Source of the DNA: a virus | DNA length: 64,000 bases | Reading direction: 5' to 3' (one strand) | Virus record (IMG/VR): IMGVR_UViG_3300043773_002546 | Location: 64,001 to 128,000 of that record | Part shown: positions 29,464 to 53,525 of the stretch, piece after piece | How the letters are laid out: every line of letters starts with the position of its first letter | Position numbering within the stretch: position 1 is the first letter of the stretch | The notes under the pieces: model-generated | What the model was told of the DNA's origin: nothing | The model's database searches: none | The model's input: only the letters and a program-made list of their open reading frames with translations | Program-made: the position numbers and the translations under genes

Positions 29464-31770
29464 ATGTCGCAGTTACAAGCATTTACAAACGTAGCCGGAC
29501 CCATAACGGTAGGGTTCAAGGGCGAGTTGGCGCGGCTGGCCGATCCGAACATCACGGACAAGGATACGGCCCACAGTTACTGCCCGGTATACGAGCAGGA
29601 ACTTGGGCGTTTGCGCCTAACCACAGGGCACGTGCTTGAAATTGGAGTGCAGCGCGGCGGTTCGGCCTGCATGTGGCTGCAGTATTTCGATTATGCAACT
29701 GTGCATGGCGTTGATATTTCGCCCAAACCGCAGTTGATGTTGCTGCACGATCCGCGCTACCAGCATCACCAAAAAGACGCCTACTCTGCAGATTTCGTTG
29801 CGTCTTTGCCGGACCTAATGGTAGCAATTGACGACGGGCCGCACACTGTCGAGTCGCAGCTGTCTTTTATTCGTCTGTACGGGCCAAAAATCGAACCGGC
29901 TGGTTTGCTAATCATCGAGGACATAGCGGCAGACGACGCTTTGCAACGCATCACAGCGCAGTTTGACGATCGCTGGGTCGTGCGCGTTTACGACCGTCGC
30001 GCGCTCACCAATCGGTTTGACGACGTAATACTGGTGGCGCAAAAAACGCAAGGTATGGTTGTGATGGTGGATGATCGCGGTTACGCGGATTTCATACAGG
30101 GCGCGGCCGCGCGGAACAAAGCTTTTGCCGACATGCACGGTCACGCGTTTCGGTTTTACCGTCCTGAAACCATAGTCTCTCCAGCGGGCCAGAAGCGGCA
30201 CCCAAGTTGGACAAAAATTATTGCCGTCGCGCACGCGCTACAGTCGGTTGATTGGGTTTTGTACATTGATTCTGACGCGGCCGTTGTCGCGCCGCGGCAA
30301 CCCGTCCCGATGCGCGAAAAATCTTGGTTCATTGCTGATCGGCCCTGGAACCGACAGTCTCCTAATGCGGGAATCTTTTTACTGCACAAGCGCGACTTAG
30401 CCTGGTTGCCGCAATGGTGGGAGTTTGACCTGCCCGAGCACGATAACAAACATTCCTGGGAGCAGGCGGCGTTGCAACGGTTGTGGGACACGTTACCGTT
30501 GGCGCTTTACAACGCGCCCCACGTGGAGATTGCTGACGAGCAGTGGGTGCGCCATTGCTATAACGAACAATCTAATCGCCGCAAGGATTTCTGCGTTGGC
30601 GCGCCCGTTGTGGCGCTGCCGGAGCCAATACCGTTTTCATGCACGCAACATGATGTTACGATTGGCGGCACTACATCTCCTTTTTACGCTCTCTGGAAAC
30701 AGCCACGCGCTATGAAAATCGCTGTTTACTCGCTGGCCAAGAACGAAGAGAAGCACGCTGCGGCCTGGGCGGAGTCTTGCAAAGAAGCTGACTACCGCGT
30801 GGTCACGGACACCGGTTCGGCCGACAAGACACCGGATATCCTGCGCGCAGCTGGCGTTAGTGTGTACACGGGCAACGTTGTGCCGTGGCGCTGGGACGAG
30901 GCCCATAACCTCTCCATGCACCATATACCCAGCGACGCCGACGTTTGCGTGCGCTTGGACTTGGACGAGCGTTTCAAACCTGGCTGGCGCGCGGCTATCG
31001 AGCAAGCCTGGAAGCCCGGCACGACCAAGCTACGGTACATGTACACCTGGAGCATGACGCCCGACGGTAAACCATTAAAGCGATTTCCCTCTGACCGCGT
31101 GCACAGTCGCTCGGGGTATCGCTGGACCGGAGCGACGCACGAAGGACTTGTGCGCTGGAATGGCGCGGAAGTATTCGCCTGGTCTGACGAGCTAGAAATT
31201 TTGCATCACCGCGATTTCGGCAAGAAACATAGCACAGACATGGAGCTCTTGCAGATCGCCGTGCGTGAAACGCCGCACGACGCTCGCATGTACTGGTATT
31301 TAGCGCGGCAAATGGACTATGAAAATCACACCGACACGGTCGCCACGTTTTTGAAGTACTTAGACATGCCCGGGGGTAGCTCAATCGAGCGAGCCTACGC
31401 TTGCCGCGTTTTGTCCCGTAGGCTGCCCGATAAAGCAGAATACTGGCTGCAGCGCGCCATTCAAGAAGATGCCGCTGGGCCTGATGGTTACTACGCCATG
31501 GCCAAATTGGCGCATCAAAATAAAAATCACTTAACAGCCTTCTACTACGGCAAGCAGGCCGCCGATAGAGCGGGCGCAAGCATGATGCACACCAGCGACA
31601 CAGAAGCGTTCAGCCACCTTCCGGCGGATATCACGAGCGTGAACGCGTTTCTCTTGGGGCTCAACAAAGAAGCCTTGCGCTACACCAAAATTGCGCTTGA
31701 GCGCAGCCCAAACGATGAGCGCCTCAAGCGCAATCTTGAGCAACTCTCGGAACAGCTCAAAGCTCATTGA
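29464..31770 (+). CDS. Multidomain SAM methyltransferase + GT34-like GT + GT2 + TPR fusion
   Basis: VLEIGVQRGGS and IDDGPH (MTase); WTKI, LYIDSDA, NAGIF, WEQAAL (GT34-like); from 30712 MKIAVYSLAKNEE, DTGSADKT, LDLDE (GT2); helical TPR tail. Confidence 0.8.
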   Translation: MSQLQAFTNVAGPITVGFKGELARLADPNITDKDTAHSYCPVYEQELGRLRLTTGHVLEIGVQRGGSACMWLQYFDYATVHGVDISPKPQLMLLHDPRYQHHQKDAYSADFVASLPDLMVAIDDGPHTVESQLSFIRLYGPKIEPAGLLIIEDIAADDALQRITAQFDDRWVVRVYDRRALTNRFDDVILVAQKTQGMVVMVDDRGYADFIQGAAARNKAFADMHGHAFRFYRPETIVSPAGQKRHPSWTKIIAVAHALQSVDWVLYIDSDAAVVAPRQPVPMREKSWFIADRPWNRQSPNAGIFLLHKRDLAWLPQWWEFDLPEHDNKHSWEQAALQRLWDTLPLALYNAPHVEIADEQWVRHCYNEQSNRRKDFCVGAPVVALPEPIPFSCTQHDVTIGGTTSPFYALWKQPRAMKIAVYSLAKNEEKHAAAWAESCKEADYRVVTDTGSADKTPDILRAAGVSVYTGNVVPWRWDEAHNLSMHHIPSDADVCVRLDLDERFKPGWRAAIEQAWKPGTTKLRYMYTWSMTPDGKPLKRFPSDRVHSRSGYRWTGATHEGLVRWNGAEVFAWSDELEILHHRDFGKKHSTDMELLQIAVRETPHDARMYWYLARQMDYENHTDTVATFLKYLDMPGGSSIERAYACRVLSRRLPDKAEYWLQRAIQEDAAGPDGYYAMAKLAHQNKNHLTAFYYGKQAADRAGASMMHTSDTEAFSHLPADITSVNAFLLGLNKEALRYTKIALERSPNDERLKRNLEQLSEQLKAH

Positions 31771-37986: not shown

Positions 37987-38335
37987 GGGGGCGAAAAGGT
38001 ATCGACGGGATGAAGAAAGTTTGGACTGCATGCCGTGGTTGATCGGTTGGCCACGTTAAAAGCCGATTACGTTTCTAGCTGGCGCTTACGCTCCCGCTCT
38101 CGCTGCCTAGTTTCTAGGTTCGCGAGTGGGGCTGCATGGGCCTCATTGCCCAATCATGCCGTGTCGTTTCGTTAAACGACTGATCTCGCCCAGAGAGAAA
38201 GGGCACGATGGTGGTAGCCCACCTGACGCCGATAATCGGCTGGCTTTGCCTGTAGTGTGAGCAACAACAGGATACGCATGTAGACGTCCTTACCAGGCAC
38301 ATCTCCGGACCCGGGTTCGATTCCCGGCGCCTCCA
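37987..38335 (+). ncRNA. ssrA: tmRNA (one-piece)
   Basis: 5' GGGGGCG..TCGAC; 3' GGTTCGATTCCCGGCGCCTCCA; G3:U70 Ala identity pair; tag ORF 38081-38110 (A)GAYAPALAA*. Confidence 0.95.
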
Positions 38336-44528: not shown

Positions 44529-47500
44529 ATGCCCACGCCGATCACCCGCATCTTTCGTTTGATTCGTTTGCTTCGCGTCCGGCGTGACGCTGCCAATAGC
44601 ACCGATGGCGCGCCGACGAATCTGCGCCCCGGTGAGCTGGCGTTTGGCGACACGGAAAGCACGCTGTACCTCGGCAAGACCGACGGAACAGTGGCCGCGT
44701 TTGGCGAAGGCGGCGGTGGCGGCTCTGGCGCCACGGGGCCTACTGGCCCAGTGGGCACCAACGGCGCGACCGGGCCTACTGGCCCTCAAGCCGAGACGGG
44801 CGCAACTGGCGCGACCGGCCCTCAAGGCGAGACGGGTTCAATTGGCGCGACCGGACCCCAAGGCGAGACGGGTTCAATTGGCGCGACTGGACCCCAGGGC
44901 GAAACTGGTTTAACTGGCCCGGCGGGTTCCAGCGTGTACACCTGGCGCGGCGAGTGGGACAACACGACAAGCTATAACGCGAACGACGTCGTGTCTTACA
45001 ACGGCGCGAGCTACATCGCGACGACGTCCGCGAGTTCAGGCAGCGGCGACCCGGTGACGAACACAAGCGCCTGGCAGCTGCTGGCACAAGCGGGCGCTAC
45101 CGGCCCCAACGGCGCCACGGGCACGAGCTTTACGTGGCGCGGCGAATGGAGCTCAAGCGCCGAGTACTACGTTAACGACGTGGTGTACTACGGCGGCAGC
45201 GCCTGGATTGCGACGACCACGACGTCGAATCAGACTCCGGCTAACGTGCCCGGAGCTTCTTGGGCGCTGATGACGCAAACCACGGGCGACACCGGGCCGA
45301 CTGGTCCGACGGGCGAAACTGGTCCCACGGGCCCGACGAGCCTGGTCTGGCGCGGCGAGTGGAACAGCGGCACGCCGTACTATGCCAACGACGTGGTGTT
45401 TTATTCCGGCGCGTCGTATGTCGCCACAGACTACAACACGAGTTCCGCGCCGACGAGCGGCATGTACTGGAACGTGCTCGTGCAGACCAGCGGCGACACG
45501 GGACCGACGGGCGAAACCGGTCCGACAGGCGCAGGCTCGAACATGGTCGAAGCAGGCGCGGGCACTGGCAGTCTTGTCGGCCTGCCGTCGGCCAATAGCA
45601 ACAGCGCCAACGGAAATTACAGCGCCGTAGGCGGCGGTGCGAGCAACACAGCTGCAGTTAGTTATTCTGCTGTTTTTGGTGGCAGCGCTAACGTGGCCTC
45701 CGGCGACACGCACGCTGCTGTGTTTGCTGGTCAGTGGAACGCGGCGTTAGGTCCGGCTGCCGCGATTTGCGCTGGGTTTTCCAACACCGCCAGCGGTTCG
45801 TATAGCTTTATCGGCGCCGGGCAGTCTAACGTCGTCGACGGTAAATGGGGCGTCATCGGCGGCGGTTCGAGCAACAACGCGGGCGGCGGCATCGACAGTT
45901 GGAGCGCCACGGTTGGCGGCGGCAAGTTCAACACCGCGAGTAATACCTACAGCACGGTCAGTGGCGGCTATGGCAACGCCGCCAACGGGCAATACAGCGC
46001 CGTCAGCGGCGGCTTGCTCAATGCCGCCAGCGGTACGGCTAGCGCCGTCGGCGGCGGCCAGCGCAACACCGCCAGCGCCTACTACAGCGCCACGGTTGGC
46101 GGCGGCTATGGCAACACCGCTCTCGGCAACTACAGCGCCGTCGGCGGCGGCAAGAGCAACGCCGCCAACGGAAATTACAGCGCCGTGGGCGGCGGCTTTC
46201 AAAACGTCACCAGTAATTCCGCCTACAACACCGTGGGCGGTGGCGCAATCAACAACGCTACTGCGGAGGGCAGCACCGTAGCGGGCGGAGGATGGTACGA
46301 CTCCGACACAGCCGAGATCGTAGGCAACACAGCCGGTGGGGCCATCAGCAGCGTCGGCGGCGGCGCGCGCAATTTTGCACTGGGCCTGGCCAGCACTGTG
46401 AGCGGCGGCACGCGCAACACCGCCAGCGGCGACTACACTACCATCAGCGGCGGTAAGCTGAACGCGGCCTCGGGCACCGGCGCCACGGTCGCGGGCGGTG
46501 GTCGGTTTAATGCGAGCGGCCCTAATCCCGAAGGCAACACGGCTGCTGGCAATTACAGCTTTGTGGGCGGCGGCATCGGCAACATCGCCCACAACCCCTA
46601 CAGCACCGTGGGCGGGGGATACAAAAACGAAGCTGTGGGCGAGGAATCCACGGTATCTGGCGGCAGGTACAACGACGCAGGCGCGACGCAGAGCACTATA
46701 GCGGGCGGAGAAAGTAACGGGGCTAACGCCTATTGCAGTTCCGTGGGCGGCGGAAGTCAAAATTATGCTAATGGTTATTGTTCCGTCATCGGCGGCGGTA
46801 TCTTGAACAACGCTGGCGGCGACCACACCACCGTCGGCGGTGGCTACCAAAACACCGCCAGCGGCAATCGAAGCACTGTCGGCGGTGGCTCCCAAAACAC
46901 CGCCACCGGCCAATCCGCCACGGTTGGCGGCGGCTATAAAAACACCGCCAGCGGCTACTACAGCGCCGTCAGTGGCGGTCGGCAAAACACCGCCAGCGCC
47001 TACTACAGCGCCGTGGGCGGCGGCTATAAAAACACCGCCACCGCCCGCTATAGTTTCGCCAGCGGCAGCTATTCCGCCGTCGCGCACTATAGCGCGCAGG
47101 CGCACGCCGCGGGCCGTTTCGCGAGCTCTGGTGACGCGCAAAAACTCACGCTCGTAGCGCGCTGCGAAACTACCGACGCCACGGCAAATCAGGTGCTGTA
47201 TCTAGACGGCGCTGACGCAACCGCGCGGTTGGTGCTCCCCGCTAATACGACCTGGGTATTTGATATCAAACTCAGCGCAAGCAACGTCACGGACGGCGCT
47301 GGAGCGGGCTGGCACATTCGCGGTGTGATTCGGCGAAATGCCTCCAACAGCACCGTGCTTGTGGGCAGCAATATCGTCGAAGGTTGGACGGAGTCGGCTA
47401 TGAGCGGTGCGGCAGTAAGCGCTGTGGCTGACAATACAAACGAGGCGCTTGAGCTGCGCGTCACGGGTTTAGCCAGCAAAACAATTCGTTGGGTTGCCGT

Positions 47501-47537
47501 CGTTGAAGTAGCGCAGGTTTCGTTTGATCCGGCGTAA
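44529..47537 (+). CDS. Tail fibre/adhesin: Mtd-N-like anchor, collagen repeats, WRGEW modules, beta-solenoid
   Basis: [21 protein letters not shown]; (Gly-X-Y)n; three WRGEW...Y..NDVV.Y.G modules; about 15-aa GGG..NTASG.YS.V repeats. Confidence 0.8.
44725..44915 (+). repeat. Collagen-like tandem repeats (27-bp unit)
   Basis: GGCGCGACCGGCCCTCAAGGCGAGACGGGTTCAATT-type units encoding [12 protein letters not shown]. Confidence 0.8.
45590..47100 (+). repeat. Beta-solenoid coding repeats (about 45-bp unit)
   Basis: Recurrent GGCGGCGGC...AACACCGCCAGC units. Confidence 0.8.
47259..47270. promoter_or_regulatory. Dispersed palindrome copy 11 (TTTGATATCAAA)
   Basis: Perfect 12-bp palindrome inside a CDS. 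Confidence 0.6.
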
Positions 47538-47584: not shown

Positions 47585-49570
47585 ATGTCGAACGAAATCA
47601 ATTTTGGCGGTAAGACGCTCAAAAACACTGGCCAAGTCGCACTGGGCAAGAACGGCACCGCGAGCTACTACGCCACGGTCAGCGGCGGGAGAAGCAACAC
47701 GGCTCTTGGACAGGGCGTGACAATCAGCGGCGGCCAATACAACCTCGGCACCAGTAGTAGCTATCAAGATGTAATCGGCGGCGGCAGCGGGAATCTATTG
47801 AACGACAGCTACGCCAGCGTAATTGGCGGTGGCATGACAAACACGGTTAGCGCTCAGCACACCGTAGTTGGCGGCGGCTACACCAACACCGCCAGTAATA
47901 ATCAAGCGACGGTCAGCGGCGGCAAATTTAACGCTGCTTCGGGTGTTGCGGCGACGGTCGGCGGCGGGAGAAACAACACCGCCAGCGGCTACACCAGCAC
48001 CGTTAGCGGCGGCGTTCAAAATACCGCTACCGGTCTCTGTAGTGTTATTGGTGGCGGCGGCGGAAGGTTAATTCCGGATACGATTCCGCCGGAGGGCAAC
48101 TTAGTTGGTTCCAGTACCGGGTCGGGCGCGGTTTTTAGCTTGGTTTTTCAATCCAACGGCCCGCCGACTGTAGATGGCCCCGAAACGTGGATTCTTTCCG
48201 AGGCTTCTATCACCGACGGCGGTACGGGCTACAATCAGTACGACTACCTCACTATTTCTCTGGGCGCGCCCACCGACGTCGAACTTAGTCCGGCGAGCGT
48301 AGAAGTGTCCGACGTCGATCCGGAAACCGGCGCAATTCTGTCCGTCTATGTGACCGATGGCGGCTTGTACTATCGCCCGGCCGGTACGTTTACGGCGTTT
48401 GGGCGCAATCATGCCAGCGCCGACCACAGCACCGTCGGCGGCGGCAAGAACAACACCGCCGGAGGTACTTGGTCTGATTGCGCCACAGTTTCTGGCGGCC
48501 AAGACAACACCAGCCTGAACCGCAGCTTTATCGGCGGCGGCTATAGCAACACCGCCTTCGGCGGCTACAACGCTATCGGCGGCGGTAATAATAACGTTTC
48601 TATGGGTAATTGGAGCGCAATCAGTGGTGGAAGTGAGAATACCACTGCTACGAACACGAATCGCGCCGCAATTGGTGGCGGGAGGGGGAACGTCGTCGAC
48701 AGAACCGGCGGCACCGTCAGTGGCGGCTACAGCAACAGCGCGCTGGGGCAGTACGCCGCGGTCGGCGGCGGATCGGGCAACACCGCCATCGGTAATTTCG
48801 TCCCAGCTGTCGGCGCTCCCGCCTACGCCACCATCAGCGGCGGCAAGGAAAACACCGCCAGCGGTTACGGCGGCGTCGTTGGCGGTGGTCGGGAAAACAA
48901 AGCCGCCGGTATTTACGCTACGATCGACGGCGGGAGAAACAACACGGCGAGCGCCAATTACACCACCATCGGCGGCGGCGGTGTAAACACCGCCGCCGGG
49001 GGCCACGATACAGTCAGCGGCGGGCAGCGGAACACCGCCAGCGGCAGCTATAGCGTCATCGGCGGCGGCAGGTTTAACACCGTCAGCGGCCTGTACAGCA
49101 CCGTCAGCGGCGGCCAACGCGCTCTGGCAGACCGCCGCGGCATGCGGGCGTACGGCGCTGGGCAATTTAGCACTACCGGCGACGCGCAGCAGGTTGACTT
49201 TATGCTGCGCAATAGTACGACCAATGCTACGCCCACCACGCTGTTTCTTAACGGAAGCTCCGACCGGTTGACCATTCCGTCTGGCAAGGCGCTTTTTGCC
49301 ACGGTGACCGTAGCAGGCATTATCAACGGCGGCAGCAAAGCGGCGCATTACAGCCGCAAAGTGGCGATTAAGAACGTCGGCGGGACTACTAGCTTGATTG
49401 GCTCCGTGATCACACTTGGCACCGACGTCGAGGACGACGCTGCCTATGACGTCACGATTACTGCCGACAACACCAACGACGCGCTGCAGATCAACGTCAC
49501 GGGCAAAGCTAGCGAAACCATTCGCTGGGTAGCGCACGTCCAGGGCATCGAAATCGCCTACGGTTCATAG
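47585..49570 (+). CDS. Second beta-solenoid fibre protein, paralogous C-terminal domain
   Basis: Same GGG..NTASG repeats; C-terminal GDAQ...T.L.L.G...RL.IP domain shared with 44529 gene; acidic insert at about 48063-48400. Confidence 0.8.
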   Translation: MSNEINFGGKTLKNTGQVALGKNGTASYYATVSGGRSNTALGQGVTISGGQYNLGTSSSYQDVIGGGSGNLLNDSYASVIGGGMTNTVSAQHTVVGGGYTNTASNNQATVSGGKFNAASGVAATVGGGRNNTASGYTSTVSGGVQNTATGLCSVIGGGGGRLIPDTIPPEGNLVGSSTGSGAVFSLVFQSNGPPTVDGPETWILSEASITDGGTGYNQYDYLTISLGAPTDVELSPASVEVSDVDPETGAILSVYVTDGGLYYRPAGTFTAFGRNHASADHSTVGGGKNNTAGGTWSDCATVSGGQDNTSLNRSFIGGGYSNTAFGGYNAIGGGNNNVSMGNWSAISGGSENTTATNTNRAAIGGGRGNVVDRTGGTVSGGYSNSALGQYAAVGGGSGNTAIGNFVPAVGAPAYATISGGKENTASGYGGVVGGGRENKAAGIYATIDGGRNNTASANYTTIGGGGVNTAAGGHDTVSGGQRNTASGSYSVIGGGRFNTVSGLYSTVSGGQRALADRRGMRAYGAGQFSTTGDAQQVDFMLRNSTTNATPTTLFLNGSSDRLTIPSGKALFATVTVAGIINGGSKAAHYSRKVAIKNVGGTTSLIGSVITLGTDVEDDAAYDVTITADNTNDALQINVTGKASETIRWVAHVQGIEIAYGS

Positions 49571-49589
49571 CATAGCCAGGCCAGCCCGA

Positions 49590-49601
49590 TTTGATATCAA
49601 A
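49590..49601. promoter_or_regulatory. Dispersed palindrome copy 12 (TTTGATATCAAA)
   Basis: Intergenic, 6 bp upstream of TTGACA. Confidence 0.72.
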
Positions 49602-49607
49602 CCCGCC

Positions 49608-49635
49608 TTGACAGGTTTTTGCGCCGCGCTATTCT
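49608..49635 (+). promoter_or_regulatory. Sigma70-type promoter
   Basis: TTGACA-N16-TATTCT; ATG follows 7 nt later, so possibly leaderless. Confidence 0.6.
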
Positions 49636-49642
49636 CGTGAGC

Positions 49643-50446
49643 ATGAAAGCGCATTATTTCATTTCGGGTTTGCCCCGGTCTGGCTCCACGCTTCTGTGCA
49701 ACATCCTGGCGCAGAACCCGCGGTTTTTTGTGTCGCCCGCGACCTCGGGCTGTCACGACGTGCTGTTTAATATCCGGAATCAGTGGGACCGGCTGATCGA
49801 GCACCAGGCCGAAGGTATCAACTACGATCAGCTACGCGGCGTGATGCGCGCTGCGTTGGACGCCTATCACGTCACCGACAAGCCCGTGGTTATCGACAAA
49901 GGCCGCGGCTGGCTAAGTCTTGTCGAGATGCTGGAATTCATCAAAGGCGGGCCTGCCAAGATCATTGTTCCGGTACGGGACATCGCTGAGATTCTGGCCA
50001 GCTTCGAACAGCTCTGGCGAAAGTCCACCGGCATGACGCAGTGGGCTTTCGAGAGCGCGGATTACTTTAAGTCACAAACCATCGAGGGGCGCTGCGAGAT
50101 CTGGGCGGGTATGAGCCAGCCAGTTGGGCTGGCCTACAACCGCGTAAAAGACGCGCTCGCCCGCGGCCACGACAAAAGCATGCTGTTCATGGAAATGGAC
50201 GACCTGACGCGCGATCCCGCGCAGACTATGCGCCGGATCTACGAGTTTCTGGGTGAGCCGTCGTTTGAGCATAACTTTGCGAACGTGCAGCAGGTCACCA
50301 AGGAAGACGACGTCAACGTACATCGCATTCCCGGCCTGCACGCGATTCGGGGCGTTGTGGCGCCAGTGCCCAAGCGCGCATCGGAGATTCTCGGCCCAGA
50401 TTTAGTCCGCAAGTACGCGCATGCAGAGATTTGGCGGCGTTCTTAA
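49643..50446 (+). CDS. PAPS-dependent sulfotransferase
   Basis: FISGLPRSGSTLL 5'-PSB loop; VRDIAEILAS 3'-PB motif; DPAQTMRRIYEFLG. Confidence 0.9.
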   Translation: MKAHYFISGLPRSGSTLLCNILAQNPRFFVSPATSGCHDVLFNIRNQWDRLIEHQAEGINYDQLRGVMRAALDAYHVTDKPVVIDKGRGWLSLVEMLEFIKGGPAKIIVPVRDIAEILASFEQLWRKSTGMTQWAFESADYFKSQTIEGRCEIWAGMSQPVGLAYNRVKDALARGHDKSMLFMEMDDLTRDPAQTMRRIYEFLGEPSFEHNFANVQQVTKEDDVNVHRIPGLHAIRGVVAPVPKRASEILGPDLVRKYAHAEIWRRS

Positions 50447-50497
50447 AACGTCGTTATACTAAGTGTGTCACGTGCCCTTTTTTATGGAGTTTAACTC

Positions 50498-50866
50498 ATG
50501 AGTGTTTTGAATCCTCCGACGCAACCGGCTGTTCCCGCTGGCCAGGTCGTCGCCGAGCGGCTGAAGCAGCAAACCCGTCAGACGTTTCAGCAGCTTGTCA
50601 TGGCGTTTAACAATGGCGCCCGCTCGTTCTGGAATAACAACGACGCCACGCCTGCTGACATTGCTGCGGCCCTCGGCACCGACGCCAAGGAAGTTTTTGA
50701 GCTGCACGGCAAGATCGGCGCCCTGCTGGCGTCCGTGAATCCCGCGGCGATTGCTCCTGGTGTCTCTGCGGTGGGCGCGTTCACCTACAACGCCGACGGT
50801 ACGGTCACGGTCACCGGCCCCGCGCCCGAGCCCGCCCCCGAGCCCGCCCCGACGCCTGAAGCCTGA
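50498..50866 (+). CDS. Hypothetical protein with EPAP-repeat tail
   Basis: GGAG RBS; APEPAPEPAP repeats. Confidence 0.75.
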   Translation: MSVLNPPTQPAVPAGQVVAERLKQQTRQTFQQLVMAFNNGARSFWNNNDATPADIAAALGTDAKEVFELHGKIGALLASVNPAAIAPGVSAVGAFTYNADGTVTVTGPAPEPAPEPAPTPEA

Positions 50867-50903
50867 GTCGCTCAAAGATATCTATTCACGTAGGTATCGG
50901 TAT

Positions 50904-50976
50904 CCCGGAGTAGAGAAACCAGTATCTCGCCACGCTCATAACGTGGAGTTTGCGGGTGCGAGTCCCGTCTCCGGCA
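50904..50976 (+). tRNA. Atypical tRNA with CAU anticodon (Met/initiator-like)
   Basis: (C)CCGGAG/CTCCGG(C)A acceptor with C1:C72 mismatch; GAGA/TCTC D stem; CCACG-CTCATAA-CGTGG; T loop TGCGAGT. Confidence 0.75.
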
Positions 50977-50987
50977 CTTATTACCCC

Positions 50988-51009
50988 CCTAGTCGCTTCG
51001 GTGGCTAGG
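50988..51009 (+). other. UUCG-tetraloop hairpin
   Basis: CCTAGTCGC-TTCG-GTGGCTAGG directly after the tRNA. Confidence 0.6.
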
Positions 51010-51055
51010 CCGCGAAGCCCAGTCAAGTTAAACTCTTGCCGGGCTTCTGCTATTT

Positions 51056-51988
51056 ATGCACCCGCGCAACTACGCCAACATTCAGCGCCGCCGGTATCTC
51101 GAACGCCAGCCCGCCGCGCAAAGTCTCGCGGGGCTGGAGGTGCTGCTTCATCTCGATTCGTTTTGCCTGGGCGACACGCTGTGCTTTGCGTCGTACCTGC
51201 CGGACTTCAAACACTACTATCAGCCCAGCAAGCTCTGGGTGACGACGTTCTGGCCGGAACTCTTTGGTATCTCCGACGAGTTCGACGTGCTCGACGCGGT
51301 AAGCCCAGACACGCTCGTGTGCGACAAGCTCGTTAGCTGCGGCTATCGCAAAGAAGACCTTCTGCACACCACCCGCGGCATGTTCTACGCCGCGCGGGCC
51401 TCGATGGGGCTGCCGGAGGCCCTGCCTGGCGCCGCGGTGCGGAGGCCGCTGACGCGCCCGGTGGCTGCCGTGCGGCAAACCAACAAGATCGTGCTGGCGC
51501 CGGAGAGTACAAAGTCCATTGCGCGCTGGGACTATCAGGGCGGTTGGGGTTGGCAAGCAGTTGTCGACGCGCTGGTGGCCCGCGGCTTCGAGGTGCACAA
51601 CATCTCGTATGAGACCGACCTGGGCCTGCGCAACGTGATTCCGCACCACGGGCACGACGATATCGCCGTCGTGCGCCAGCACATCGCCGAAGCGCGGCTG
51701 TTTCTGGGCTTGAGTTCAGGGCTCGCGTGGCTGGCCTGGGCTTACCACACGCCGGTGGTCATGGTGGCGGGGTTCACCAAGTTTTTTAACGAGTTTCCCT
51801 GCTACCGCGTTTGGAATCCGCACGCTTGCAACGGCTGTTTCAACGTGTTTCCCGACATTAAAAGTCCGTGTCCGCTGTTTGACAATACCGACCGTAAGCA
51901 CGAATGCCACCGCACGATTACGCCGGACATGGTGCTCGCGCAGGTCGATCGGGCGCTTGCAGATACGGCGACTCGCGCGCAGCATTAG
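51056..51988 (+). CDS. BAHT/TibC/Aah-like heptosyltransferase (GT9-related)
   Basis: LDSFCLGDTL; APESTKSIARW..GW; FLGLSSGLAWLAWA; NPHACNGC...CP...ECHRTITP Cys cluster. Confidence 0.75.
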   Translation: MHPRNYANIQRRRYLERQPAAQSLAGLEVLLHLDSFCLGDTLCFASYLPDFKHYYQPSKLWVTTFWPELFGISDEFDVLDAVSPDTLVCDKLVSCGYRKEDLLHTTRGMFYAARASMGLPEALPGAAVRRPLTRPVAAVRQTNKIVLAPESTKSIARWDYQGGWGWQAVVDALVARGFEVHNISYETDLGLRNVIPHHGHDDIAVVRQHIAEARLFLGLSSGLAWLAWAYHTPVVMVAGFTKFFNEFPCYRVWNPHACNGCFNVFPDIKSPCPLFDNTDRKHECHRTITPDMVLAQVDRALADTATRAQH

Positions 51989-51998
51989 AAATCTCTTT

Positions 51999-52012
51999 CT
52001 CTCTCTCTCTCT
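51999..52012 (+). repeat. (CT)7 simple sequence repeat
   Basis: Between the heptosyltransferase stop and the next RBS. Confidence 0.8.
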
Positions 52013-52038
52013 TTTTCTTGCAAGGAAGGCAGAACGCT

Positions 52039-53418
52039 ATGTTCGTGACGACATGCACGCGGGACTATCTTGTGGGGCTTGAAGTTCTGCTGCAGAGCCT
52101 GGTGGACCACAACGAGTGGCTCGCGTCCGACGATATTCCGTTTGTCGTGCTCTCGAATGACCTGACGGCTGCTGATCTCACGGTAGCGCAAAAGATATAT
52201 CCACACGTGAAAATCCGTGGCTACGACGCTGAGAAGTACGCGCCGCTGGAGGAGCTCCGCCGCCAGGCCCAGGCTTTCGGTGATTACTCGAAATACGAAG
52301 TGTTCTCAGTGCCCGACGCCGAGCGCGTGGTCTTTCTGGACGTCGACATGCTGATTCGTGGCGATATCTCTGCGCTGCTGTACAACGAGCAGGACTTCGC
52401 CGCCGTGCGCGAGCTGTACATCGACCAGTTCAATACTGGCGTGATGGTCATCGGCAAAAAGTATCTCTCGCCCCGGGTCACCGCTGATTTGATTCGCCTG
52501 ACGCAGGTCTACGGCGTTACCGAGCATTTGGATCAAGACATCATCAATCACTATTTCGACGGGCAGGTGCACGAGCTGCCGCTGGCCTATAACTTTTTGA
52601 AGATCTATCACAAGCCCATTTTCCGCCGCGACGGCCTGGCCAAGTACGTGAAGATTCTGCACTACGTTGTCAAAAAGCCCTGGCAGCAAAAGTCCGCTGT
52701 AAATCTTGAAGAAGGCACACTTTGGCTCGAGCGCTACTGGTATGACGTGTACGCCAAGACGCTGCGCCTGCGTCACGACAGCGTAGCGCCCGCCGCAGCC
52801 GCCCAGGCTCCGGCGTCAGTTTTAATTCCAGTTCCAGTTCCAGTTCCAGTTCCAGCAGTCGCTGCCCCCAGCACGCTGCCGCCGCTACGCACCCGCGACG
52901 AGTTGGGCAGCTGGATGACGCAGATGGGCTACACGCTGGCTGCCGAAGTCGGCGTGCAGCGTGGCAATTTCTCGCGGCAGCTTTTGAGCACCTGGCCCGG
53001 CGAGCTCTTGATGATCGACGCCTGGGAGCGCCTGCCGGATTATCAAGACGTCTCGAACGTCTACAACGACGAGCATGCGCAGCTCATGGCGGTTGCGCAG
53101 CAGGTGGCGCAGGCGTTTGCGCCCCGCGGCGTGATTGTGAAGGCCAAGAGCCCCGAGTGCGCAGTCAGCTACGCCGACGGCTCGCTGGATCTGGTGTATC
53201 TCGACGCAAATCACAGTTACGAGGCTGTGCTGGCTGACATTCAAGCCTGGCTCCCCAAGCTCCGCCCAGGTGGCGCGCTTGCTGGCCACGATTACGTCGA
53301 CGGCGAACTGCCCCAAGGCCGATTTGGCGTAAAACGGGCTGTTAACGAGTTTTTTGGTCGAGCGCCCGACCTTGTAACAGAAGAAACCTGGGCCACGTGG
53401 CTGTATCTCGTGAAATAG
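52039..53418 (+). CDS. GT8 (glycogenin-like) glycosyltransferase fused to class I SAM methyltransferase
   Basis: FLDVDML; FNTGVM; DQDIIN; ILHY..KPW; Pro/Val linker; EVGVQRG; YLDANHSY; GHDY. Confidence 0.85.
   Translation: MFVTTCTRDYLVGLEVLLQSLVDHNEWLASDDIPFVVLSNDLTAADLTVAQKIYPHVKIRGYDAEKYAPLEELRRQAQAFGDYSKYEVFSVPDAERVVFLDVDMLIRGDISALLYNEQDFAAVRELYIDQFNTGVMVIGKKYLSPRVTADLIRLTQVYGVTEHLDQDIINHYFDGQVHELPLAYNFLKIYHKPIFRRDGLAKYVKILHYVVKKPWQQKSAVNLEEGTLWLERYWYDVYAKTLRLRHDSVAPAAAAQAPASVLIPVPVPVPVPAVAAPSTLPPLRTRDELGSWMTQMGYTLAAEVGVQRGNFSRQLLSTWPGELLMIDAWERLPDYQDVSNVYNDEHAQLMAVAQQVAQAFAPRGVIVKAKSPECAVSYADGSLDLVYLDANHSYEAVLADIQAWLPKLRPGGALAGHDYVDGELPQGRFGVKRAVNEFFGRAPDLVTEETWATWLYLVK
52826..52855 (+). 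repeat. (TTCCAG)5 in-frame hexamer repeat
   Basis: Encodes the PVPVPVP interdomain linker. Confidence 0.85.
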
Positions 53419-53525
53419 TCTCTCGCACGCGAAAACCGCGTGATTTTAGCTGCCAGCCGCGTTTTGGCTGCGAGGTATACTTACAACCTGCGCGGCAAGG
53501 ACGCCGCGTGCCCGGGAGACAGAGC

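What the first reader, a model, noticed from the sequence alone, without database searches (positions are those of the whole stretch)
49643..53418. Sulfotransferase, BAHT-like heptosyltransferase and GT8-methyltransferase directly after the fibre genes
Seen in sequence: the three enzymes follow the two solenoid fibres. The 51056 protein keeps the LGDT, SSGL.WLAW and Cys-cluster features. Established: Aah/TibC (BAHT) are iron-containing enzymes that hyper-heptosylate Ser residues on repetitive beta-helix autotransporter adhesins. Inference: the phage has co-opted an adhesin-glycosylation system for its own tail fibres, then extends, methylates and sulfates the glycan. To my knowledge this is not described for bacteriophages.
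Basis: partly seen in the sequence, partly recalled or inferred. Interest (0 to 1): 0.8.

Follow-up and report, generated by a model that had tools for sequence, protein, structure and literature searches.

The report
Phage tail-fibre sugar-and-sulfate decoration genes
An uncultured 197-kb lake phage carries, directly after two repeat-built tail-fibre genes, a stripped-down relative of the bacterial enzymes that attach heptose sugars to adhesins, plus a second sugar transferase, a methyltransferase and a sulfotransferase. These enzymes most likely decorate the phage's own fibres, a kind of virus-particle chemistry that is common in metagenomes but that I could not find described in print.

Summary
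Window 49643-53418 encodes four things on the + strand:
- a sulfotransferase;
- a 310-aa TibC/Aah-like GT9 enzyme;
- a GT8-methyltransferase fusion.

They lie directly after two fibres built from about 47 copies of a 15-residue Ser/Thr-rich repeat.

The GT9 enzyme groups with TibC, not with the LPS enzymes WaaC/WaaF. It keeps the catalytic Asp and all four iron-finger Cys. It lacks TibC's N-terminal beta-barrel and its hairpin thumb, and it scores below NCBI's family cut-off. It is therefore a minimal variant, not a canonical member.

Comparative genomics links the enzymes to the fibres in both directions:
- 14 of 16 close relatives keep a solenoid fibre beside the cassette.
- Of fibre loci picked by the repeat motif alone that have at least 4 kb of flank on one side, 18 of 29 hold a sulfotransferase or a GT9-type gene.

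The phage also encodes an HldE-like ADP-heptose synthase elsewhere in its genome.

Fibre O-heptosylation, extension, methylation and sulfation is the best reading (about 0.6), but no chemistry has been measured. Earlier notes of this scan report the same kind of cassette in at least 53 other genomes. I found no paper that describes it.

The parts
44529..47537 (+). Fibre 1, 1002 aa. It has a collagen-like stretch, CBM5/12-like modules, about 30 turns of the 15-aa Ser/Thr-rich solenoid repeat, and a C-terminal domain shared with fibre 2. Proposed acceptor.
   Evidence: Pfam Collagen and CBM_5_12; phrog_5073 'tail fiber' at 9.5e-48. Residues 87-319 match annotated tail fibres of PA5oct, S-CAM1 and other cultured phages. 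Repeat analysis.
47585..49570 (+). Fibre 2, 661 aa. It has two blocks of the same 15-aa repeat and the shared C-terminal domain. Proposed acceptor.
   Evidence: Repeat analysis. In the AF2 model of residues 270-661, the repeat region is all-beta and periodic with pLDDT 70-93, while the C-terminal domain is below 50. The fold search was inconclusive. Fibres 1 and 2 are the only proteins in the genome that carry this repeat.
49608..49635 (+). Sigma-70-like promoter match (TTGACA-16-TATTCT) in the gap between fibre 2 and the sulfotransferase, just after a TGATATCA palindrome at about 49590.
   Evidence: Consensus scan, 10 of 12 positions; the region's count of 4 sites is not above the shuffles (mean 2.5). 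Sequence read. Weak evidence only.
49643..50446 (+). PAPS-type sulfotransferase, 267 aa from the ATG.
   Evidence: Pfam Sulfotransfer_3 at 59.3 bits and Sulfotransfer_1 at 55 bits; phrog_27463 at 3.1e-51. Its Atlas neighbours are clusters that are mostly viral. Homologues lie next to solenoid fibres in 15 of 46 motif-selected loci.
50498..50866 (+). 122-aa ORF of unknown function, with a GGAG ribosome-binding site and a Pro/Glu/Ala-rich tail.
   Evidence: No Pfam, PHROG or NCBIfam match.
50904..50977 (+). tRNA-Met (anticodon CAT) embedded in the cassette.
   Evidence: ARAGORN; Rfam RF00005 at 53.3 bits.
51056..51988 (+). Minimal BAHT-like GT9 glycosyltransferase, 310 aa. It comprises the GT-B catalytic domain and the four-Cys iron-finger motif, without a beta-barrel or a hairpin thumb. 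Proposed Ser/Thr O-heptosyltransferase.
52036..53418 (+). GT8 glycosyltransferase (DNA about 52051-52689) fused through a Pro/Ala-rich linker to a Methyltransf_24 SAM methyltransferase (DNA about 52945-53295).
   Evidence: Pfam; motifs read. The best sequence matches in the PDB are the Skp1 glycan alpha-galactosyltransferase 6mw5 (1.3e-8), a GT8 entry 5gvv (5.9e-8) and glycogenin. A stand-alone GT8 of 247 aa, 48-57% identical, is present in 14 related cassettes.
53426..53442 (+). Terminator-like hairpin followed by a T-run, 8 nt after the GT8-methyltransferase stop codon.
   Evidence: Consensus scan. Weak: 19 such sites were found in the region, against a shuffle mean of 12.2.

Best explanation
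The block 49643-53418 is a cytoplasmic tailoring set that decorates the phage's own tail fibres before or during assembly.

Proposed steps:
1. The 310-aa enzyme is a minimal BAHT. It uses Asp40 as catalytic base and an iron- or metal-binding four-Cys finger. It transfers heptose from an NDP-heptose onto Ser/Thr exposed in the turns of the 15-residue beta-solenoid repeats of the two adjacent fibres. The donor is probably ADP-heptose, whose supply is boosted by the phage's own HldE-like kinase/adenylyltransferase, with the host providing the isomerase and the phosphatase.
2. The GT8 domain then adds an alpha-linked hexose.
3. The fused methyltransferase O-methylates a sugar.
4. The sulfotransferase adds sulfate from host PAPS.

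The result would be fibres coated with a methylated, anionic glycan.

Shown: the enzyme families, the intact active-site motifs, the closeness to TibC, the repeat architecture of the fibres, the conserved two-way gene linkage, and the phage HldE.

Inferred: the acceptor, the donor, the order of the steps and the biological purpose (receptor binding, protease or defence shielding, or solubility).
For: 1. The enzyme is of the protein-glycosylating kind.
- It matches TibC at E 1.6e-18; a family profile matches at 5.7e-30 over TibC residues 92-392.
- The AF2 model (pLDDT 93.4) matches TibC at TM 0.75-0.79, against 0.52-0.57 for WaaC/WaaF.
- D110 aligns with D40. Cys339/342/358/370 align with C258/C261/C272/C284. 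W305 aligns with W225. All of these are invariant in 86 homologues. The TibC residue roles come from PMC4358343.

2. The enzymes are linked to the fibres.
- 16 IMG/VR loci carry a GT that is 43-71% identical. 12 of them have the same SxVGGGxxN solenoid protein within 8.5 kb, and 2 more have a different 14-15-aa NT-x-G solenoid directly upstream. 14-15 of them also keep the GT8 and the sulfotransferase.
- The sister phage has reshuffled the gene order but keeps the enzymes beside the fibres.
- A distant 318-kb phage has a BAHT fusion, a sulfotransferase, an APS kinase and an 1876-aa solenoid fibre together.

3. The reverse test agrees. Among loci fetched only by the repeat motif, 20 of 46 hold a sulfotransferase or a GT9-type gene. 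Among those with at least 4 kb of flank on one side, the figure is 18 of 29. The enzyme gene usually abuts the fibre gene.

4. Donor supply points to heptose.
- The phage's own genome encodes an HldE-like protein: NF008454 at 1.9e-65 and rfaE_dom_II at 7.9e-44. The sister phage has one too.
- In two other phages an rfaE_dom_II-like gene starts 1 nt after a BAHT-fusion gene.

5. The GT8 domain's best sequence matches among solved structures are enzymes that glycosylate or extend glycans on proteins: the Skp1 galactosyltransferase and glycogenin.

6. Fibres 1 and 2 are the only proteins in the genome with the repeat, and at about 22% Ser+Thr they are among its most Ser/Thr-rich large proteins.
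Against: - There is no chemical or proteomic evidence of any modification. This phage is uncultured.
- The enzyme lacks TibC's beta-barrel (residues 1-97), whose deletion abolishes TibC activity. It also lacks the hairpin thumb that TibC needs to form its dodecamer (PMC4358343). Substrate handling must therefore differ from TibC.
- TibC's Arg-286 (adenine contact) is not conserved, and Lys-230 (beta-phosphate contact) aligns with Ala, although an invariant Lys153 lies three positions earlier. The donor may therefore not be ADP-heptose.
- HldE lies about 65 kb from the cassette. An rfaE_dom_II-like gene was absent from 0 of 5 complete genomes in the second batch of BAHT-carrying phages I checked.
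- GT9 and GT8 are also the two classic LPS-core transferase families.
- Gene linkage to a receptor-binding protein would also fit a receptor-masking function.
- In motif-selected fibre loci the commonest partners are a different GT9-like protein (c8) and the sulfotransferase. BAHT-type genes were seen in only 5 of 46. The sulfotransferase may therefore not depend on this particular GT.
Confidence: 0.6

Rival explanations
1. Host-envelope remodelling. The GT9-like, GT8, methyl- and sulfotransferase enzymes modify the host's LPS core, O-antigen or capsule during infection. This would mask the receptor, either to exclude superinfecting phages or to keep progeny from sticking to cell debris. The genes would travel with the fibre genes as a host-range cassette.
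For: GT9 and GT8 are the canonical LPS-core transferase families, and HldE feeds LPS heptose (established knowledge). Weak matches to LPS heptosyltransferase models do exist: RfaQ at 2e-5 and heptosyltransferase I at 9e-4. The sulfotransferase weakly resembles the Nod-factor sulfotransferase NoeE, at 3.9e-4. Receptor-blocking genes next to receptor-binding genes are known, for example T5 llp beside its receptor-binding protein (own knowledge).
Against: The enzyme scores 112 bits on the BAHT model against at most 24 bits on the LPS models, and its fold is much closer to TibC. It keeps the iron finger, which in TibC serves protein-substrate recognition (PMC4358343). The GT8 part gave no NCBIfam match at E 0.1, and among solved structures it matched enzymes that act on proteins or their glycans, plus one O-antigen enzyme (WbbM, 1.8e-4). 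The linkage is specifically to Ser/Thr-rich solenoid fibres of two different repeat types and across very different phages. A receptor-masking role does not predict that.
Confidence: 0.14
2. The enzymes do glycosylate virion proteins, but the main acceptors are other structural proteins such as capsid, decoration, sheath or tube proteins, as in mycobacteriophages. On this reading the position beside the fibres is incidental.
For: Mycobacteriophage glycans sit on capsid and tail-tube subunits (Freeman 2023, as cited in PMC12619734). In many distant phages, tandem full-length BAHT genes lie directly upstream of the tail sheath, tube and hub genes.
Against: In the close relatives and in the motif-selected sample the enzymes abut the solenoid fibre gene itself. 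The fibres are the only repeat-built proteins in this genome and among its most Ser/Thr-rich large ones. BAHT substrates are beta-helical repeats with many equivalent Ser residues (PMC4358343).
Confidence: 0.1
3. The sulfotransferase acts directly on the fibre protein, by O-sulfation of the conserved Tyr or Ser of each repeat, and not on a glycan. The glycosyltransferases would then be a separate, optional layer.
For: The sulfotransferase is among the enzymes most often found beside solenoid fibres (15 of 46 motif-selected loci, equal with the c8 GT9-like protein), usually with no BAHT gene in view. Position 15 of the repeat is Tyr in 38% of units.
Against: Wherever a sulfotransferase is seen, a GT9-like gene (c8 or BAHT) usually lies next to it. 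There was no sequence match to tyrosylprotein sulfotransferase structures at E 0.01. The flanks in that sample were short, so GT genes may have been missed.
Confidence: 0.1
4. DNA hypermodification. The transferases glycosylate modified bases in phage DNA.
For: Many phage glycosyltransferases act on DNA (reviewed in PMC12619734; PMC13326640). phrog_2675, which matches the methyltransferase part, is labelled 'DNA methyltransferase'.
Against: There is closeness to TibC and conserved linkage to fibre genes, not to nucleotide-metabolism genes. The methyltransferase is fused to a GT8. Sulfated DNA glycans have no precedent that I know of.
Confidence: 0.03

Closest known systems
TibC/TibA and Aah/AIDA-I: bacterial autotransporter heptosyltransferases (BAHT; TIGR04414; PDB 4RAP and 4RB4; PMC4358343)
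   Same: Both have a GT-B GT9 catalytic domain with a TibC-type four-stranded N-lobe, the catalytic Asp in an LGD motif, a four-Cys iron-finger insertion, the heptose-contacting Trp, and Ser at the stereoselectivity position as in Aah. In both cases the gene lies beside a gene for a beta-solenoid surface protein that offers many equivalent Ser/Thr residues. Both enzymes are cytoplasmic.
   Different: The phage enzyme is 96 aa shorter. It has no N-terminal beta-barrel, and its thumb is about 8 residues shorter with no hydrophobic tip, so a TibC-like dodecamer is unlikely. Arg-286 is not conserved, and Lys-230 aligns with Ala, with a different invariant Lys nearby. It has three extra conserved Cys (C37, C43, C249). 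It scores 112 bits against a cut-off of 200. The partner protein is a phage tail fibre with a 15-residue repeat, not a 19-residue autotransporter passenger. The cassette adds GT8, methyl- and sulfotransferase steps.
Full-length BAHT homologues encoded by phages. Examples are the roughly 400-aa proteins upstream of the tail sheath genes in IMG/VR contigs (L018, L038, L064), and the 1226-aa GT4+methyltransferase+BAHT protein of Microcystis phage Mel-JY01 (PP395634, 4750-8430, annotated 'methyltransferase FkbM').
   Same: They belong to the same family and the same phage-dominated clade in the tree. They sit in tail or fibre modules, and are often fused to or adjacent to further glycosyltransferases and methyltransferases.
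   Different: These pass the TIGR04414 cut-off (265-336 bits, profile positions 9-372) and keep the N-terminal region. The window's enzyme belongs to a monophyletic short subfamily on a long branch. None has a published function that I could find.
Mycobacteriophage virion glycosylation (Freeman et al. 2023, Cell Host Microbe; cited in PMC12619734)
   Same: Phage-encoded glycosyltransferases decorate the phage's own structural proteins.
   Different: According to the citing text, the glycans there sit at the C-termini of capsid and tail-tube subunits. No BAHT/GT9 enzyme, heptose synthesis, methylation or sulfation is reported in that text. I could not read the original paper, which is not held in the library.
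LPS inner-core heptosyltransferases WaaC/WaaF/WaaQ (GT9)
   Same: Same GT-B superfamily and the same presumed class of donor.
   Different: About 12% identity, TM 0.52-0.57, and at most 24 bits on their NCBIfam models. They have no iron finger. Their acceptor is lipid A-Kdo, not a protein.
Viral heptose-biosynthetic enzymes (Tang et al. 2024, Science; read through the commentary PMC11461863)
   Same: The phage HldE-like protein fits the reported class of viral kinase/nucleotidyltransferase enzymes. It also carries an Arg at position 5 of the (F/L)xxGxSTT motif (here MLSGRSTT).
   Different: That work left the role of NDP-heptose in viruses open. Here a likely consumer, a BAHT-like transferase, is encoded in the same genome.

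Membership tests
BAHT (TibC/Aah, TIGR04414) | GT-B catalytic domain homologous to TibC residues 98-406 in both sequence and fold | tested here: met
   phmmer gives 1.6e-18; the family profile gives 5.7e-30 over TibC 92-392. Foldseek gives E about 1e-18 and TM 0.75-0.79.
BAHT (TibC/Aah, TIGR04414) | Catalytic base Asp-110 | tested here: met
   It aligns with D40 of LGDT, which is invariant in 86 homologues.
BAHT (TibC/Aah, TIGR04414) | Iron finger: four Cys (339, 342, 358, 370) | tested here: met
   They align with C258, C261, C272 and C284, all invariant. Metal binding itself cannot be tested here.
BAHT (TibC/Aah, TIGR04414) | ADP-heptose contacts Thr-226, Lys-230, Arg-286 and Trp-305 | tested here: inconclusive
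   W305 aligns with the invariant W225. T226 aligns with T152, which varies across the family. K230 aligns with A156, but K153 is invariant. R286 aligns with His or Ala depending on the alignment and is not conserved.
BAHT (TibC/Aah, TIGR04414) | N-terminal beta-barrel (residues 1-97), which is required for TibC activity | tested here: not met
   The protein is 310 aa against 406. The alignment starts at TibC residue 92. TIGR04414 matches only profile positions 205-373 (positions 79-374 in a relative).
BAHT (TibC/Aah, TIGR04414) | Beta-hairpin thumb with a hydrophobic tip (F265/V266) for dodecamer assembly | tested here: not met
   There is an 8-residue deletion at this point in the alignments. 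The model shows no hairpin between residues 183 and 202.
BAHT (TibC/Aah, TIGR04414) | Score at or above the curated equivalog cut-off of 200 bits | tested here: not met
   112.1 bits. Full-length phage homologues reach 265-336 bits.
BAHT (TibC/Aah, TIGR04414) | Heptosyl transfer to Ser of an adjacent beta-helical substrate; dodecameric assembly | not testable with these tools
   Only context is available: adjacent Ser/Thr-rich solenoid fibres and a phage HldE.
LPS heptosyltransferases (WaaC/WaaF/WaaQ) | Match to the curated models; closest fold | tested here: not met
   23.6, 18.5 and 16.5 bits, against cut-offs of 467, 185 and 170. TM 0.52-0.57 at 12% identity.
GT8 glycosyltransferases | Pfam PF01501 above cut-off; DxD motif and C-terminal H..KPW motif | tested here: met
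   61 bits against a cut-off of 24.3. LDVDML and HYVVKKPW are present.
PAPS-dependent sulfotransferases | Pfam PF13469 or PF00685 above cut-off; 5'-PSB and 3'-PB motifs | tested here: met
   59.3 and 55 bits. GLPRSGST and VPVRD..S are present. The acceptor is not testable here.
Class I SAM methyltransferases (Methyltransf_24) | Pfam PF13578 above cut-off | tested here: met
   58.9 bits against a cut-off of 26.3.
HldE (ADP-heptose synthase), encoded outside the window | Kinase and adenylyltransferase domains matching the curated models | tested here: inconclusive
   NF008454 gives 221 bits (cut-off 521), rfaE_dom_II gives 149 (cut-off 181.5) and rfaE_dom_I gives 106 (cut-off 345). This is clear homology over the full length, but below the equivalog cut-offs.

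The most novel reading that the evidence does not exclude
Tail fibres of a large and widespread group of aquatic phages are hyper-modified at dozens of equivalent solenoid turns with a virus-made glycan that is heptose-based, methylated and sulfated. The phage supplies its own NDP-heptose and, in relatives, its own PAPS. Part of host recognition, or of protection of the fibre, would then be written in post-translational chemistry and not in the fibre's amino-acid sequence. The minimal BAHT would also show that the catalytic domain plus the iron finger is enough for protein heptosylation, without the dodecameric ring.
Probability: 0.4. Interest if true: 0.85.

Novelty: new variant of a known kind. 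Interest (0 to 1): 0.7.

Why it matters
If the fibres are really glyco-sulfated, several things follow.
- Phage host range and fibre stability would depend on a layer of chemistry that sequence-based receptor-binding predictions cannot see.
- It would give a function to the NDP-heptose pathway genes recently reported in viruses, whose role was left open (PMC11461863).
- It would add a second, chemically very different case of phage virion glycosylation to the mycobacteriophage one.
- It would provide a natural minimal BAHT, with no barrel and no thumb, for dissecting how these enzymes recognise beta-solenoid substrates.

The module is common. P0001 matches 965 clusters of the 50%-identity protein library at E ≤ 0.001. 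More than 534 IMG/VR stretches encode relatives. Hundreds of sulfotransferase homologues lie in mostly viral clusters.

Tried and rejected
I took context from the search for related loci and the DNA search instead.
- Megablast of 44-56 kb against GenBank phages found nothing. tblastn of fibre 2 found nothing, probably because of the low-complexity filter.
- The pattern search built from the fibre alignment failed, because no stretch was conserved enough. I replaced it with a hand-written degenerate DNA pattern.
- The fold search of the fibre model gave only weak matches to tailspike beta-helices (E 3e-3, TM 0.2). I do not rely on it.
- No APS kinase and no SIS/GmhA gene is present in this genome. 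PAPS and the isomerase must come from the host.
- Genes next to HldE gave no heptose-pathway hits.
- The genome has no homologue of the c8 GT9-like protein that is common in other fibre cassettes.
- The PDB sequence search for the sulfotransferase was uninformative.
- HldE is not a general companion of phage BAHTs. An rfaE_dom_II-like gene was found in 5 of 10 contigs in the first batches (including the own genome) and in 2 of 19 in the next.
- The Freeman 2023 paper is not held in the library.
- I rejected the reading 'LPS-type heptosyltransferase' on HMM and fold scores.
- I rejected 'canonical BAHT' because the barrel and the thumb are missing and the score is below the cut-off.

Full report
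**Setting.** The window is bases 64001-128000 of a 197,309-bp IMG/VR viral contig that CheckV estimates to be 96% complete. It has about 60% G+C and encodes a family-A DNA polymerase, a UvsX-like recombinase and other large-phage genes. Nearly all large ORFs lie on the + strand. Earlier notes of this scan call it a lake phage related to Salmonella phage Arash. I did not test that.

**Observation.** From 44.5 to 53.4 kb the + strand carries the following features, in order:
- fibre 1, 44529-47537, 1002 aa;
- fibre 2, 47585-49570, 661 aa;
- a sulfotransferase, with its ATG at 49643 and its stop at 50446;
- a 122-aa ORF, 50498-50866;
- a tRNA-Met(CAT), 50904-50977;
- a 310-aa GT9-like protein, 51056-51988;
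- a GT8-Methyltransf_24 fusion, whose ORF opens at 51904 but whose likely start is 52036, ending at 53418.

The GT8 part has DxD (LDVDML) and HYVVKKPW. The sulfotransferase has PAPS-binding-type motifs. A sigma-70-like promoter match lies at 49608-49635 and a terminator-like hairpin at 53426-53442. Together they bracket the enzyme genes, but such consensus matches are weak evidence.

**The fibres.**
- Both proteins are about 19% Gly and 21-22% Ser+Thr.
- They hold 47 anchored units of a 15-residue repeat. The consensus is S(48%)-T(51%)-V/I-G/S-G-G-x-x-N-T(53%)-A-S(36%)-G-x-Y(38%).
- Fibre 1 also has a collagen-like stretch and CBM5/12-like modules. Its residues 87-319 match proteins annotated as tail fibres in cultured phages such as PA5oct and S-CAM1. 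It also matches phrog_5073, 'tail fiber'.
- An AF2 model of fibre 2 residues 270-661 gives an all-beta, periodic repeat region with pLDDT 70-93. The shared C-terminal domain is not confidently modelled. The fold search was inconclusive.
- 'Repeat-built beta-solenoid-type fibre' therefore rests on the sequence periodicity and the model, not on a fold match.
- These two are the only proteins in the genome that carry the repeat.

**What the 310-aa enzyme is.**
- Its only sequence matches among solved structures are the two TibC entries (E 1.6e-18). A profile of 21 homologues aligns to TibC residues 92-392 at 5.7e-30. That span is the whole GT-B catalytic domain and starts exactly where TibC's N-terminal beta-barrel ends.
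- NCBIfam TIGR04414 (Aah/TibC) scores 112 bits, against at most 24 bits for the LPS heptosyltransferase models.
- An AF2 model built from 86 homologues (pLDDT 93.4, pTM 0.91) matches TibC at TM 0.75-0.79 and WaaC/WaaF at 0.52-0.57.
- I took residue roles from the TibC paper (PMC4358343). The catalytic Asp-110 corresponds to D40. The iron-binding Cys-339/342/358/370 correspond to C258/C261/C272/C284. Trp-305 corresponds to W225. All are invariant in the family.
- The stereoselectivity position (Pro-300 in TibC, Ser-294 in Aah) is Ser220.

The enzyme also differs from TibC:
- It has no beta-barrel; deletion of the barrel kills TibC.
- The hairpin thumb that builds TibC's dodecamer is about 8 residues shorter and is not a hairpin in the model.
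- Lys-230 aligns with Ala, although Lys153 nearby is invariant.
- Arg-286, which reads adenine, is not conserved.
- The score is below the curated cut-off of 200 bits.

I therefore file it as a minimal BAHT-like variant, not as a family member in the strict sense.

**Distribution and descent.**
- The exhaustive search found 965 clusters of the 50%-identity protein library at E ≤ 0.001, and 726 at ≤ 1e-10. Many are C-terminal domains of 600-2000-aa multi-enzyme fusions.
- More than 534 IMG/VR stretches encode relatives.
- Phage homologues of about 400 aa are full-length BAHTs, at 265-336 bits covering profile positions 9-372. They often lie in tandem directly upstream of tail sheath, tube and hub genes.
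- Microcystis phage Mel-JY01 has a 1226-aa GT4+methyltransferase+BAHT protein next to a 'structural protein'. It is annotated only as 'methyltransferase FkbM'.
- In bacterial genomes the best matches are at most about 32% identical over the full length.
- I built a FastTree tree of 106 rows. The very remote c8 proteins fall as an outgroup under midpoint rooting. The short form is monophyletic (support 100) on a long branch. It sits inside a clade of phage sequences plus a few MAG sequences, separate from the main bacterial BAHT clade.
- That tree is quick, and long branches are a known risk in it. It does not show who donated the gene to whom.

**Linkage to fibres, forward.** I examined the 16 viral loci whose GT is 43-71% identical.
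- 12 have a protein with the same SxVGGGxxN repeat within 8.5 kb.
- 2 more (L004, L015) have a different 14-15-residue solenoid (NIALG..AL..NT.G..) directly upstream.
- The usual order is fibre(s), GT8 (247 aa), BAHT-like, a second GT9-like protein (c8, about 294 aa), then the sulfotransferase.
- This is followed by an APS kinase (PF01583), a small CTP_transf_like protein and a DUF2061 protein.
- The sister phage (GT 70% identical) has a different gene order but still keeps the enzymes beside the fibres.
- A complete 318-kb phage with a GT only about 30% identical has a BAHT fusion, a sulfotransferase, an APS kinase, c8 and an 1876-aa solenoid/collagen fibre together.

**Linkage, reverse.** I fetched IMG/VR loci using only a degenerate DNA pattern for VGGGxxNTA[ST]G.
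- 46 loci have an ORF with at least 5 repeats.
- Of these, 15 hold a sulfotransferase homologue, 15 hold c8, 5 hold a BAHT-type gene, and 20 hold at least one of the three.
- Among loci with at least 4 kb of flank on one side, 18 of 29 hold at least one. The enzyme gene usually abuts the fibre gene.
- The flanks were short, so these counts are lower bounds. I had no matched background sample.
- Sulfotransferases are rare in phage genomes in my experience, but I did not measure that rate.
- The test also shows that the core partners of such fibres are a GT9-like protein and the sulfotransferase. The window's BAHT-like enzyme is one of two GT9-type options.
- c8 is only remotely and weakly similar to it (hhalign E 0.0023, probability 13%). 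It lacks the Cys finger and the LGD Asp.

**Donor supply.**
- The genome encodes a 506-aa HldE-like protein at contig positions 49431-50951, which is 13-14.5 kb before the window. NF008454 gives 1.9e-65 over the full length, rfaE_dom_II gives 7.9e-44 and rfaE_dom_I gives 2.4e-30. All are below the equivalog cut-offs.
- Its C-terminal motif MLSGRSTT carries Arg at position 5. The commentary on Tang et al. 2024 links that residue to the ability to also make CDP- and UDP-heptose (PMC11461863). I saw this only in the sequence.
- The sister phage has an HldE-like gene too.
- In two other phages an rfaE_dom_II-like gene (87 bits) starts 1 nt after a BAHT-fusion gene.
- HldE is not a general companion, however. 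It was absent from 5 complete smaller BAHT-carrying genomes.
- This genome has no GmhA-type SIS protein and no APS kinase. The host must supply the isomerase, the phosphatase and PAPS.

**Mechanism proposed.** All the enzymes lack any sign of secretion in the features examined, and they resemble cytoplasmic enzymes. BAHTs act in the cytoplasm on their substrates before export (PMC4358343). The most economical reading is cytoplasmic decoration of fibre subunits in four steps:
1. Heptose is attached to Ser/Thr in the solenoid turns.
2. The GT8 domain adds an alpha-hexose. Its best solved sequence relatives act on proteins or on protein-linked glycans.
3. The fused methyltransferase O-methylates a sugar.
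4. The sulfotransferase adds sulfate.

The order, the sites and the sugars are inference. I put 0.6 on 'these enzymes modify the adjacent fibres', and less on any single chemical detail.

**Rivals.**
- Host LPS or capsule remodelling (0.14) is the serious rival, because GT9, GT8 and HldE are LPS-core hallmarks. It is weakened by the enzyme's clear preference for the BAHT model and fold, by the retained iron finger, and by the specific linkage to Ser/Thr-rich solenoids.
- Other virion proteins as the acceptors (0.10).
- Direct protein sulfation (0.10).
- DNA modification (0.03).

**Novelty and prior notes.**
- Full-text searches found no paper on phage BAHT-like enzymes, on phage sulfotransferases beside fibres, or on a role for phage HldE. 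The library does not hold most subscription journals.
- Phage virion glycosylation as such is known (Freeman 2023).
- After my own analysis I looked up this scan's earlier notes. 60 findings in at least 53 genomes describe fibre + GT9-like + sulfotransferase cassettes, and several follow-ups reached the same reading. These are unchecked AI notes. I treat them as agreement, not as evidence.
- Four things are particular to this window: the minimal BAHT form, the GT8-methyltransferase fusion, a full HldE in the same genome, and the absence of PAPS genes.

Noticed in passing
window 50904-50977: A tRNA-Met (anticodon CAT) gene lies inside the enzyme cassette, between the 122-aa ORF and the BAHT-like gene. 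The window also holds tRNA-Lys, tRNA-Glu and tRNA-Asn genes.
   Followed up: partly
window 37987-38335: A phage-encoded tmRNA with the predicted tag GAYAPALAA (ARAGORN).
   Followed up: no
outside the window: contig positions 49431-50951 (L083:403-1923): An HldE-like bifunctional heptose kinase/adenylyltransferase sits beside the SbcD-like nuclease region. Its C-terminal motif MLSGRSTT has the Arg that PMC11461863 links to CDP- and UDP-heptose synthesis. No GmhA or GmhB gene was found nearby.
   Followed up: partly
window 29464-31770: A second methyltransferase + glycosyltransferase fusion (768 aa; Methyltransf_24 at the N-terminus; phrog_13126 'beta-1,4-glycosyltransferase' at 1.2e-73). It lies 15 kb upstream of the fibres. 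A weak GT2-like ORF lies at contig positions 53050-53850.
   Followed up: no
L172:3234-5950, L177:8616-11340, L217:4638-7750, L255:3825-6823 and others: A recurrent core module lies beside solenoid fibres in other phages: a GT9-like protein without a Cys finger (c8, about 294 aa, with GGLGK in place of LGD), a sulfotransferase, an APS kinase, a 125-160-aa CTP_transf_like protein and a DUF2061 protein. The small nucleotidyltransferase always follows the APS kinase and scores best on NMN-adenylyltransferase models. It might be a minimal sulfate adenylyltransferase, but that is a guess.
   Followed up: partly
window 51056-51988 (protein residues 32, 37, 43, 249): The short BAHT subfamily has three further invariant or nearly invariant Cys, plus an invariant His32, that TibC lacks. 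C37 and C43 flank the catalytic D40, and C249 is the third. This could be a second metal site or a disulfide. I did not examine it in the model.
   Followed up: no
L082:4750-8430 (Microcystis phage Mel-JY01, PP395634): A 1226-aa protein annotated 'methyltransferase FkbM' is in fact GT4 + methyltransferase + a full-length BAHT domain (TIGR04414 at 317 bits). It follows a 'structural protein', and a 639-aa 'cytidylyltransferase like protein' lies 3 kb downstream. It is a cultured phage in which the idea could be tested.
   Followed up: partly
window about 49585-49600: A TGATATCA-centred palindrome lies in the gap between fibre 2 and the sulfotransferase, just before the promoter-like site. Earlier notes describe this palindrome as spread across the whole genome.
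   Followed up: no
L004:6768-8375 and L015 (same gene): Here the fibre beside the cassette uses a different 14-15-residue repeat (NIALG..AL..NT.G..). It shares with the window's repeat only the N-T-x-[ST/G] turn, which makes that turn a candidate acceptor loop.
   Followed up: partly
outside the window: contig positions 282-1568: A 428-aa collagen-like, Ser/Thr-rich (24.5%) protein lies at the start of the contig. It is similar to the collagen-repeat fibres found near full-length BAHT genes in other phages. It is another possible acceptor.
   Followed up: no
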